Translations under genes and position numbers: made by a program
Shown: in pieces, positions 21,224 through 21,266 of the stretch
Layout of the letters: every line of letters starts with the position of its first letter
Numbering within the stretch: the stretch's first letter is position 1
NCBI RefSeq assembly: GCF_003334765.1
Contig: NZ_QOWT01000001.1
Source of the DNA: Escherichia coli
Lineage (GTDB): Bacteria; Pseudomonadota; Gammaproteobacteria; Enterobacterales; Enterobacteriaceae
Strand: one strand, 5' to 3'
Length of the DNA stretch: 64,000 nucleotides
Notes under the pieces: model-generated
Databases searched by the model: none
Told to the model about the DNA's origin: nothing
Seen by the model: only the letters and a program-made list of their open reading frames with translations

Positions 21224-21266
21224 CTGTTTCTGTGAAAACTGTGATGAAAATCTGTGATTCAAACAG
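21224..21266. promoter_or_regulatory. cluster of CTGTGA/TGTGA direct repeats upstream of ydjF (candidate operator)
   Basis: ctgtttctgtgaaaactgtgatgaaaatctgtgattcaaacag read directly; shares tgtgaaaac-like motif with the ydjL upstream palindrome. Confidence 0.3.

What the first reader, a model, noticed from the sequence alone, without database searches (positions are those of the whole stretch)
21224..21266. CTGTGA-type direct repeats upstream of ydjF sharing a motif with the ydjL palindrome
The ydjG-ydjF intergenic region carries three closely spaced TGTGA/CTGTGA units (tctgtgaaaa, ctgtgatgaaaa, tctgtgattcaaacag). The tgtgaaaac core resembles half of the ydjL upstream palindrome (tgtaaaacg). 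Shared half-sites at two promoters of one cluster would fit autoregulation plus operon control by a single regulator.
Basis: inference. Interest (0 to 1): 0.35.

Follow-up and report, generated by a model that had tools for sequence, protein, structure and literature searches.

The report
Composite control region upstream of ydjF
The three CTGTGA repeats before the regulator gene ydjF are real but are three different things: a conserved operator-like site shared with the ydjL promoter, an E. coli-only CRP box, and the edge of a conserved RNA arm that pairs with the ydjF ribosome-binding site, probably silencing ydjF on read-through transcripts.

Summary
CTGTGA occurs at 21230, 21239 and 21252, and no shuffle of the window gives such a cluster. 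The units are not equivalent.

- **Unit 3** is the left half of a 17-bp element (21250-21266). It is conserved in 31 orthologous loci. It has the same ATCTGTG core and the same distance to the -35 hexamer as the ydjL promoter palindrome (14770-14786). That palindrome recurs 399 bp downstream inside ydjL (15170-15184), where synonymous sites are frozen. A shared operator is therefore likely, and YdjF, a DeoR-family protein, is the probable binder.
- **Unit 2** occurs only in E. coli. With unit 3 it forms the CRP box already reported under a genomic SELEX peak.
This arm pairs with the ydjF Shine-Dalgarno and GUG start (21322-21342). The ydjF promoter lies inside the loop, so only read-through RNA from ydjG carries both arms. 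Pairing beats shuffles in 30 of 31 loci. It shows G.U tolerance and compensatory changes.

No protein binding or translational effect was tested. Interest is moderate.

The parts
21230..21235 (+). CTGTGA unit 1 (tctgtgaaaa 21229-21238). It is TCTGTG(T/A)AA across Enterobacteriaceae. In E. coli its first bases close the 5' RNA arm. In Klebsiella and Citrobacter the whole unit is inside the helix.
21239..21244 (+). CTGTGA unit 2. E. coli-specific. It is the TGTGA half of the reported CRP box. A 12-nt deletion between the repeats (21233-21244) removes it in E. coli strain LZYWN_4.
21240..21255 (+). CRP box TGTGATGAAAATCTGT. It is the reverse complement of ACAGATTTTCATCACA, listed under the CRP genomic SELEX peak in the ydjG/ydjF spacer. 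Its centre is about -60.5 from the predicted start site.
   Evidence: PMC3105977, supplementary file 4; one search shows the sequence match alone is at chance level
21250..21266 (+). Operator-like element O_F: ATCTGTGATTCAAACAG (ATCTGTGATTCAGACAT in most other genera). It contains unit 3. The left half is perfect and the right half degenerate. It ends 6 nt before the -35 hexamer.
21273..21301 (+). ydjF promoter: TTGAAA, 17-nt spacer, (TGc)GATAAT. The start site is predicted near 21308 (inferred, not measured). It is conserved in all 31 loci and lies inside the loop of the RNA helix.
   Evidence: (PMC3946193 lists TTGAAA-17-GATAAT as a constitutive RpoD promoter of ydjF)
21212..21231 (+). 5' arm of the long-range RNA helix (CAUGAUUCACCUCUGU-U-UCU), the anti-Shine-Dalgarno arm. 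It starts 9 nt after the ydjG stop codon.
21322..21342 (+). 3' arm of the helix (AGA-U-ACAGGGGUG-U-AAUCGUG). It covers the ydjF Shine-Dalgarno (AGGGGU, 21328-21333) and the GUG start (21340-21342).
14770..14786 (+). ydjL promoter palindrome O_L: ATCTGTGTTTTACAGAT. It is a perfect ATCTGTGTTTCACAGAT in S. fonticola and Enterobacillus. It ends 6 nt before the -35 TTGACC (14793-14798).
14749..14765 (-). Second, inverted copy at the ydjL promoter (minus strand ATCTGCGTTTTACAACT), 21 bp upstream of O_L.
15169..15185 (+). Palindrome TTCTGTGTTGTACAGAA inside ydjL (codons 102-109). Its core is 14/15 identical to O_L and lies 399 bp from it. It is a likely auxiliary operator.

Best explanation
The segment 21224-21266 is the upstream control region of the ydjF promoter. 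It overlays three elements.

(1) Unit 3 belongs to a conserved 17-bp operator-like site (21250-21266). This site has the same ATCTGTG core, and the same position just upstream of the -35, as the palindromic operator of the ydjL promoter. A near-identical palindrome also sits 399 bp downstream inside ydjL. The most likely binder is the cluster's own DeoR-family regulator YdjF, an oligomer that would bridge the ydjL sites by looping and would autoregulate ydjF through the weaker site.

(2) Unit 2 is a recent E. coli-specific addition. With unit 3 it forms a class-I-positioned CRP box.

(3) The 5' end of the segment, plus 12 nt before it, is the 5' arm of a long-range RNA helix that sequesters the ydjF Shine-Dalgarno and GUG start. 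The ydjF promoter lies between the two arms, so ydjF's own transcripts lack the 5' arm and can be translated. Read-through transcripts from ydjLKJIHG fold back and are most likely translated poorly. This would uncouple regulator synthesis from operon induction.

Shown here: the sequence elements, their conservation and positions, the RNA complementarity and its covariation. Inferred: who binds the operator, the sign of regulation, the start site, read-through, and the translational effect.
For: Operator:
- ATCTGTG lies 23 nt before the -35 start in both promoters.
- The ungapped comparison anchored on the -35 is best at offset 0 in 13 of 21 loci (about 42% identity against 27% at other offsets, z of 2-5 in most).
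- The matrix built from ydjL sites alone ranks the ydjF site 2nd-3rd per locus.
- The intragenic palindrome is the lowest third-codon-position entropy window of the whole ydjL gene: 0.22 bits against a mean of 1.12, with the next unrelated window at 0.60.
- Firmicute orthologues encode the same DFLCC peptide with other codons and no palindrome.
- The Anaerostipes YdjF recognition helix is identical. Its ydjL promoter holds the only cluster of four TCTGT/ACAGA units in 16.7 kb.

CRP.

Promoter.

RNA helix:
- RNAalifold predicts it independently on 23 sequences.
- 94% of cells pair against 43-58% when the partner is slid, and every one-sided change is G.U.
- The window's read-through RNA folds with z = -3.35, with 0 of 200 shuffles as good. 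The promoter-derived RNA is unstructured (z = 0.21).
- Duplex energy is -25.5 kcal/mol in the window. It beats 300 shuffles in 30 of 31 loci (0-3 shuffles as good).
- The sense strand pairs better than the antisense in 27 of 31 loci (mean -23.6 against -18.6). Phytobacter gives -26.7 against -11.0 with diverged arms.
- The 5' arm is the best of 2,244 windows within 8 kb either side in 5 of 8 loci tested. Other ydj genes show nothing comparable.
- On 30 sequences, 12 pairs change on both sides (0 of 500 shuffles reach this) and the covariation score is 0.206 against 0.07-0.13 when slid.
- A Neobacillus-like contig keeps UUCCCCAUU/AAUGGGGAA at the same place.
- The only spacer SNP between K-12 and the window (21214 C/T) turns a C-G pair into U.G.
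- No terminator is predicted between ydjG and ydjF.
Against: - No binding, start-site, read-through or translation data were available. The start site at about 21308 is predicted from the -10 only.
- The right half of O_F is degenerate, and its arm spacing differs from O_L. The operator sits at -59 to -43, which is more usual for an activator than for a simple repressor.
- A gapped global alignment of the two promoter regions is not significant, so the similarity is confined to short motifs.
- The CRP box matches the consensus no better than chance (219 such matches found, 224 expected) and is not conserved.
- Enterobacillus lacks the helix. Two Firmicute orthologues (58-63% identity) also show none.
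- Alignment A2 was anchored by me on the helix core, which favours pairing.
- The orthologues are related, so the shuffle controls overstate significance.
- The 5' arm contains TCTGT and the 3' arm contains ACAGA, so a contribution at the DNA level is not excluded.
Confidence: 0.6

Rival explanations
1. One reading: the three CTGTGA units are three equivalent direct-repeat half-sites of YdjF. DeoR-family proteins often bind phased direct repeats. Nothing at the RNA level is involved.
For: TCTGTG of units 1 and 3 is conserved across Enterobacteriaceae and spaced 22 bp apart, two helical turns. The Anaerostipes ydjL promoter has TCTGTGAAAA-N11-ATCTGT, much like E. coli units 1 and 3. A further TCTGT sits at 21223.
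Against: Unit 2 is absent outside E. coli, including E. whittamii, and is deleted in a natural E. coli strain. Unit 1 is lost in Phytobacter, Serratia, Pectobacterium, Agarivorans and L040, while complementarity to the ribosome-binding site is kept there through compensatory changes.
Confidence: 0.2
2. The TGTGA units are CRP half-sites only. The region is a CRP-activated promoter with no YdjF operator.
For: CRP genomic SELEX gives a peak in this spacer with the box ACAGATTTTCATCACA. The box centre is about -60.5, a class I position. There are four TGTGA in the 136-nt spacer.
Against: There is no TCACA half. A match with three mismatches is at chance level. The TGTGA of the box is not conserved beyond E. 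coli. The conserved element, ATCTGTG plus its partner, also occurs at ydjL, inside ydjL, and in a Firmicute that has no CRP of this type. The ydjL site gave no CRP SELEX entry.
Confidence: 0.08
3. The inverted repeat ACCTCTGTTTC ... GAAACAGAGGT is a pair of DNA sites at about -85 and +20. An oligomeric repressor loops them to shut off the ydjF promoter. It is not an RNA helix.
For: The arms contain TCTGT and ACAGA, the operator half-site. The ydjL 5' UTR has a similar AAACACAGAGG at the same distance from its -35. DeoR-family repressors commonly loop DNA (established knowledge).
Against: One-sided changes are all G.U on the sense strand and never A.C. The sense duplex is better than the antisense in 27 of 31 loci, and Phytobacter gives -26.7 against -11.0 kcal/mol with only about 7 of 11 arm positions identical at the DNA level. 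Complementarity extends over the spacer and the GUG start with lineage-specific compensatory sequences. A Neobacillus-like contig keeps the pairing with unrelated arm sequences.
Confidence: 0.1
4. The repeats are a chance or slippage-generated low-complexity feature of an AT-rich spacer, with no function.
For: The units are short. A 12-nt slippage deletion between them exists in nature. Unit 2 is lineage-specific.
Against: None of 300 shuffles gives such a cluster. Units 1 and 3 lie in blocks nearly invariant across genera whose flanks are diverged.
Confidence: 0.02

Closest known systems
Operators of DeoR/GlpR-family sugar regulators (E. coli DeoR, GlpR, AgaR, UlaR). Several short repeated or palindromic sites lie at the promoter of the adjacent catabolic operon and of the regulator gene, with auxiliary sites used for looping.
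   Same: The regulator is a DeoR-family protein with PF08220 and PF00455 domains, encoded at the end of the operon. A 15-17-bp palindrome is present at both promoters. A second copy lies 21 bp away and a third 399 bp downstream inside the first gene.
   Different: The sequence motif (TCTGTG-N3-CACAGA) is not one I know for any characterised family member; this rests on my own knowledge and was not checked. The sites end upstream of the -35 rather than overlapping -35/-10. Binding is untested. The ydjF site has only one good half.
lac O1-O2 type auxiliary operator inside the first structural gene
   Same: A near-identical copy of the promoter operator lies about 400 bp downstream within coding sequence (399 bp, about 38 helical turns). 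Synonymous sites there are frozen.
   Different: The protein family is different. Looping was not demonstrated. The main operator is upstream of the -35, not over the start site.
Class I CRP site
   Same: A TGTGA half-site centred about 60 bp upstream of the predicted start, lying under a CRP genomic SELEX peak.
   Different: The second half is TCTGT, not TCACA. The match is at chance level. It is not conserved outside E. coli.
IS10/Tn10 'fold-back inhibition': protection of the transposase gene from external promoters (Davis, Simons & Kleckner 1985, Cell 43:379, as cited in PMC13181058). Similar sequestration is reported for IS3.
   Same: The 5' arm lies upstream of the gene's own promoter and the 3' arm covers the ribosome-binding site. 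Only transcripts entering from outside can form the helix, and own-promoter transcripts are free.
   Different: Here the gene is a chromosomal sugar-operon regulator, and the outside transcription is its own regulated operon. The loop is about 90 nt and holds a complete promoter and operator. The effect on translation is untested.

Membership tests
CRP binding site | Match to the palindromic consensus TGTGA-N6-TCACA beyond chance | tested here: not met
   TGTGATGAAAATCTGT has 3 mismatches in 10 positions. There are 219 such matches in the window against 224 expected.
CRP binding site | Bound by CRP-cAMP | not testable with these tools
   From the literature only: a CRP genomic SELEX peak in the ydjG/ydjF spacer with this box (PMC3105977). 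It is listed there as a predicted target, with no in vivo test.
CRP binding site | Conserved in orthologous promoters | tested here: not met
   The TGTGA of the box (unit 2) is absent from all 30 non-E. coli spacers.
DeoR-family operator (YdjF) | A DeoR-family regulator is encoded next to the regulated operon | tested here: met
   YdjF carries HTH_DeoR and DeoRC domains. The order ydjLKJIHG-F-E is kept in 31 proteobacterial loci, and the ydjL-to-ydjF gene order is largely kept in two Firmicute loci.
DeoR-family operator (YdjF) | The same motif lies at the operon promoter and at the regulator's promoter, and is conserved | tested here: met
   ATCTGTG-containing 17-mers sit at the same distance from the -35 in both promoters. 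The matrix built from ydjL sites ranks the ydjF site 2nd-3rd per locus.
DeoR-family operator (YdjF) | The motif travels with the regulator's DNA-binding domain across distant taxa | tested here: inconclusive
   Anaerostipes has an identical recognition helix and a TCTGT/ACAGA cluster at its ydjL promoter. Its arm spacing differs, and the Vallitaleaceae locus shows no such site.
DeoR-family operator (YdjF) | Bound by the regulator, with expression changed in its absence | not testable with these tools
   No YdjF binding or regulon data were found in the paper library.
Fold-back inhibition of read-through transcripts (IS10-like) | A helix between a sequence upstream of the gene's promoter and its ribosome-binding site | tested here: met
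   The promoter at 21273-21301 lies between the arms at 21212-21231 and 21322-21342.
Fold-back inhibition of read-through transcripts (IS10-like) | The gene's own transcripts lack the 5' arm and leave the ribosome-binding site open | tested here: inconclusive
   This follows from the predicted -10 and the published promoter. RNA starting at 21308 is unstructured. The start site itself was not measured.
Fold-back inhibition of read-through transcripts (IS10-like) | Read-through transcripts exist and are poorly translated | not testable with these tools
   No terminator is predicted between ydjG and ydjF. No expression data were available.
Intrinsic terminator or known RNA family | A GC-rich hairpin with a U tract, or a match to an Rfam model | tested here: not met
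   No terminator-like sites in 21000-21500. No Rfam match at E-value up to 1 in 14400-22300.

The most novel reading that the evidence does not exclude
A catabolic operon insulates its own regulator from induction. Read-through mRNA from ydjLKJIHG into ydjF folds back, so that a sequence just after the ydjG stop codon pairs with the ydjF Shine-Dalgarno and start codon. The ydjF promoter is nested in the loop and produces the only translatable ydjF mRNA. This would be a chromosomal counterpart of the IS10 protection against outside promoters. It is maintained by compensatory evolution across Enterobacterales, Agarivorans and possibly a Bacillaceae contig, and is combined with a three-operator looping system for YdjF.
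Probability: 0.45. Interest if true: 0.6.

Novelty: new member of a known kind. Interest (0 to 1): 0.45.

Why it matters
YdjF is one of the still uncharacterised E. coli transcription factors. The ydjLKJIHG operon has uncharacterised regulation, although its promoter is switched on in the mouse gut (PMC6561318). This analysis gives concrete, testable operator coordinates at ydjL, inside ydjL and at ydjF. It explains why CRP SELEX hit this spacer. It also points to a conserved RNA device that would keep regulator dosage independent of operon read-through. That design question applies to every operon whose regulator gene sits downstream in the same orientation. The predictions can be tested with a few gel-shift assays and translational fusions.

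Tried and rejected
- **Gapped global alignment** of the two promoter regions with shuffles was not significant in most loci. The regions are therefore not simply duplicated; only the motif and position comparisons hold.
- **CRP as full explanation:** rejected. The consensus scan is at chance level and unit 2 is not conserved.
- **Terminator or attenuator** between ydjG and ydjF: none predicted.
- **Known RNA family:** no Rfam hit.
- **The same fold-back at other genes of the cluster:** ydjK, ydjJ, ydjI, ydjG and ydjE show nothing. ydjL is only at the 7% tail, so I do not claim it there.
- **The RNA helix in distant Firmicute orthologues:** absent in Anaerostipes and Vallitaleaceae.
- **An operator in the ydjF-ydjE spacer:** none seen.
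- **Literature on YdjF binding sites or the ydj operon regulator:** none found. The papers only list YdjF as an uncharacterised DeoR-family member.
- **Not attempted:** a covariance-model search and a metagenome scan. The 31 targeted orthologues already answered the question.

Full report
**Locus and observation**

The window carries the E. coli ydj cluster on the + strand: ydjL 14862-15938, ydjK, ydjJ, ydjI, ydjH, ydjG 20223-21203, ydjF 21340-22098 (GTG start) and ydjE 22215-23573. It differs from K-12 MG1655 by one base in the ydjG-ydjF spacer. The hexamer is not enriched in the window (17 found, 24 expected). Three same-strand copies within 30 nt never arose in 300 dinucleotide-preserving shuffles.

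**Promoter context**

A sigma-70 promoter, TTGAAA-17-(TGc)GATAAT, lies at 21273-21301, directly downstream of the repeats. Shimada et al. 2014 list exactly this promoter as a constitutive RpoD promoter of ydjF (PMC3946193). I infer a start site near 21308; it was not measured. The repeats therefore span about -84 to -42. No terminator is predicted between ydjG and ydjF. No Rfam family matches anywhere in 14400-22300.

**Comparative data**

One scan of species-representative genomes gave 22 orthologous loci with the complete ydjLKJIHG-F-E order. These come from Escherichia, Citrobacter, Klebsiella, Raoultella, Yokenella, Budvicia, Intestinirhabdus, Symbiopectobacterium and Serratia.

A protein search and targeted contig look-ups added eight more distant proteobacterial loci with YdjF identity of 69-84%. 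These are Brenneria, Phytobacter, S. fonticola, Pectobacterium, Enterobacillus, Agarivorans and two metagenomic contigs. Three Firmicute loci with 58-72% identity were also added.

In the spacer alignment the conserved blocks are:
- ACCTCTGTTTCTGTGTAA, which contains unit 1
- AAATCTGTGATTCAGACATGTT, which contains unit 3
- the -35 and extended -10
- GGAAACAGAGGTG at the ribosome-binding site

Unit 2 lies in a variable stretch and is absent even from E. whittamii.

**Unit 2 and CRP**

Shimada et al. 2011 list ydjF as a predicted CRP target. Their supplementary table gives the box ACAGATTTTCATCACA for the ydjG/ydjF spacer peak. This is the reverse complement of 21240-21255, that is, unit 2 plus the TCTGT of unit 3. 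It is centred about -60.5 from the predicted start.

As a sequence match it is at chance level: three mismatches, with 219 such matches found against 224 expected. It is also not conserved, so any CRP input is E. coli-specific. One E. coli strain carries a 12-nt deletion (21233-21244) between the repeats that removes this unit.

**Unit 3 and the shared operator**

The ydjL promoter region is conserved as TTTGTGATC...TTGTGAAATGCAGAT-N4-ATCTGTGTTTTAAAGAT-N6-TTGACC.

- The element ATCTGTGTTTTACAGAT (14770-14786) is a palindrome. It is a perfect ATCTGTGTTTCACAGAT in S. fonticola and Enterobacillus.
- The ydjF element (21250-21266) starts with the same ATCTGTG.
- In both promoters the A of ATCTGTG lies 23 nt before the first base of the -35 hexamer (14770/14793 and 21250/21273).
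- Anchored on the -35, an ungapped comparison of the two promoters is best at offset 0 in 13 of 21 loci. Identity is about 42% against 27% at other offsets.
- A gapped global alignment is not significant, so the similarity is confined to motifs.
- All three exact TCTGTGWTT matches in the 64-kb window are in these two regions.
- A weight matrix built only from ydjL promoter sites ranks the ydjF site 2nd or 3rd of about 40,000 positions in most loci.

**An unexpected third site**

The same scan recovered TTTTCTGTGTTGTACAGAAAA at 15167-15187 inside ydjL, in every proteobacterial locus. Its core is 14/15 identical to the promoter palindrome and lies 399 bp from it, centre to centre.

These eight codons are the lowest third-position-entropy window of the whole gene: 0.22 bits against a mean of 1.12, with the next unrelated window at 0.60. 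Firmicute orthologues encode the same GDFLCC peptide with different codons and no palindrome. The constraint is therefore on the nucleotides. This looks like an auxiliary operator for looping.

A second, inverted copy lies 21 bp upstream of the promoter palindrome, at 14749-14765.

**Link to YdjF**

YdjF is a DeoR/GlpR-family protein. The Anaerostipes orthologue is 58% identical overall but has an identical recognition helix. Its ydjL promoter reads ATCTGTGAAAAATTAATGAATATCTGTAAAACAGACAT-N7-TTGACT. This is the only cluster of four TCTGT/ACAGA units in 16.7 kb.

This favours YdjF over CRP as the binder. It is not proof: the arm spacing differs, and another Firmicute locus shows no site. I found no published YdjF binding data.

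**Unit 1 and the RNA helix**

The block containing unit 1 begins with CACCTCTGTTTC. This is the reverse complement of GAAACAGAGGTG at the ydjF ribosome-binding site, about 100 nt downstream.

- RNAalifold on 23 spacers predicts this helix without prompting.
- On that alignment 94% of cells pair, against 43-58% when the partner is slid. Every one-sided change is a G.U on the sense strand.
- In the window the read-through RNA (21190-21369) folds with z = -3.35. In that fold, 21212-21231 pairs with 21322-21342, covering the Shine-Dalgarno and the GUG start.
- RNA starting at 21308 is unstructured, with z = 0.21.
- RNAduplex between the segment upstream of the promoter and the -24..+3 window gives -25.5 kcal/mol in the window. 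It beats 300 shuffles (0-3 as good) in 30 of 31 loci.
- The sense strand pairs better than the antisense in 27 of 31 loci, with means of -23.6 and -18.6.
- The arm is the best of 2,244 windows within 8 kb either side in 5 of 8 loci tested. Other ydj gene starts show nothing comparable.

Diverged lineages keep the pairing with different sequences:

| Lineage | Evidence of retained pairing |
|---|---|
| Phytobacter | GACGGUGUGUCUUUGUU / AAGCAGAGGCAUACCGUG; antisense only -11.0 kcal/mol |
| Brenneria | an A-U pair replaced by C-G |
| Contig L039 | a U-A pair replaced by C-G |
| Symbiopectobacterium, Agarivorans | a C-G pair replaced by U-A |
| Neobacillus-like contig | UUCCCCAUU / AAUGGGGAA at the same place |

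A 30-sequence arm alignment gives 12 pairs changed on both sides (0 of 500 shuffles reach this). Its covariation score is 0.206 against 0.07-0.13 when slid. I anchored that alignment on the helix core, which favours pairing. The only K-12/window difference in the spacer (21214 C/T) converts a C-G pair to U.G.

Exceptions: Enterobacillus, and the two most distant Firmicutes, lack the helix.

**Mechanism proposed**

The ydjF promoter and its operator sit in the roughly 90-nt loop between the arms. Transcripts from the ydjF promoter therefore lack the 5' arm and expose the ribosome-binding site. Transcripts reading through from ydjG carry both arms and should sequester it.

This is the logic of IS10 fold-back inhibition (Davis, Simons and Kleckner 1985, cited in PMC13181058). 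Here it would keep regulator synthesis independent of operon induction.

The alternative that the two arms are DNA sites for looping is disfavoured by three observations: the sense-strand G.U asymmetry, the compensatory changes, and the extension of pairing over the spacer and start codon. It is not excluded, because the arms contain TCTGT and ACAGA.

**Verdict**

A shared, conserved, regulator-type motif at both promoters is real, and YdjF is the likely binder.
- However, only unit 3 belongs to that motif. Unit 2 is a known, E. coli-only CRP box.
- The operator and CRP parts are new members of known kinds. The fold-back insulation of a regulator gene is the most novel reading and remains untested.

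Noticed in passing
window 15167-15187 (inside ydjL, codons 102-109): Palindrome TTTTCTGTGTTGTACAGAAAA. Its core is 14/15 identical to the ydjL promoter palindrome and lies 399 bp from it. It is the lowest synonymous-site variability window of the whole gene in 29 orthologues. It is absent from Firmicute orthologues that encode the same peptide. Probably an auxiliary operator.
   Followed up: yes
window 14738-14750 (upstream of ydjL): TTTGTGATC is almost invariant in all 29 ydjL promoters. It looks like a perfect left half of a CRP site, but with no TCACA partner. It is centred about -80 from the predicted ydjL start. The CRP SELEX table has no ydjL entry.
   Followed up: partly
window 14843-14851 (ydjL 5' UTR): AAACACAGA next to the ydjL Shine-Dalgarno is the reverse complement of TCTGTGTTT in the promoter palindrome. 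It lies at the same distance from the -35 as the ydjF 3' arm. A fold-back test for ydjL was only marginal (7% tail).
   Followed up: partly
L046 (E. coli LZYWN_4), equivalent to window 21233-21244: A natural 12-nt deletion (TGAAAACTGTGA) between the CTGTGA repeats collapses units 1 and 2 into one. Only 2 of 4,330 E. coli genomes fall in this identity band.
   Followed up: partly
window 21214: The only difference between the window and K-12 in the spacer (T against C). It turns a C-G pair of the RNA helix into U.G.
   Followed up: yes
window 22161-22180 (ydjF-ydjE spacer): Hairpin GCGGCAAGTGAATTTGCCGC followed by a weak T-rich stretch. A hairpin of the same kind (GCGCGGCAAA...CTGCCGCG) is kept in Citrobacter, Klebsiella and Yokenella. 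It may be a weak terminator or processing site between ydjF and ydjE.
   Followed up: no
L043, L044 (Vallitaleaceae MAG, Anaerostipes): Most of the ydjL-to-ydjF gene order is conserved in Firmicutes, with YdjF 58-63% identical. Anaerostipes has an extra ribulose-phosphate epimerase gene, as in one Pectobacterium. The Vallitaleaceae locus lacks a ydjK-type transporter. In both, the gene after ydjF is an SDF-family carrier, not ydjE. This points to cross-phylum transfer of the cluster.
   Followed up: no
window 13631-13646 and 9721-9736: TGTGATTTTCATCACG and TGTGACCAAACTCAAA are near-consensus CRP boxes. They match the msrB/gapA and mipA/yeaG entries of the same CRP SELEX table, so they are known sites.
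   Followed up: no
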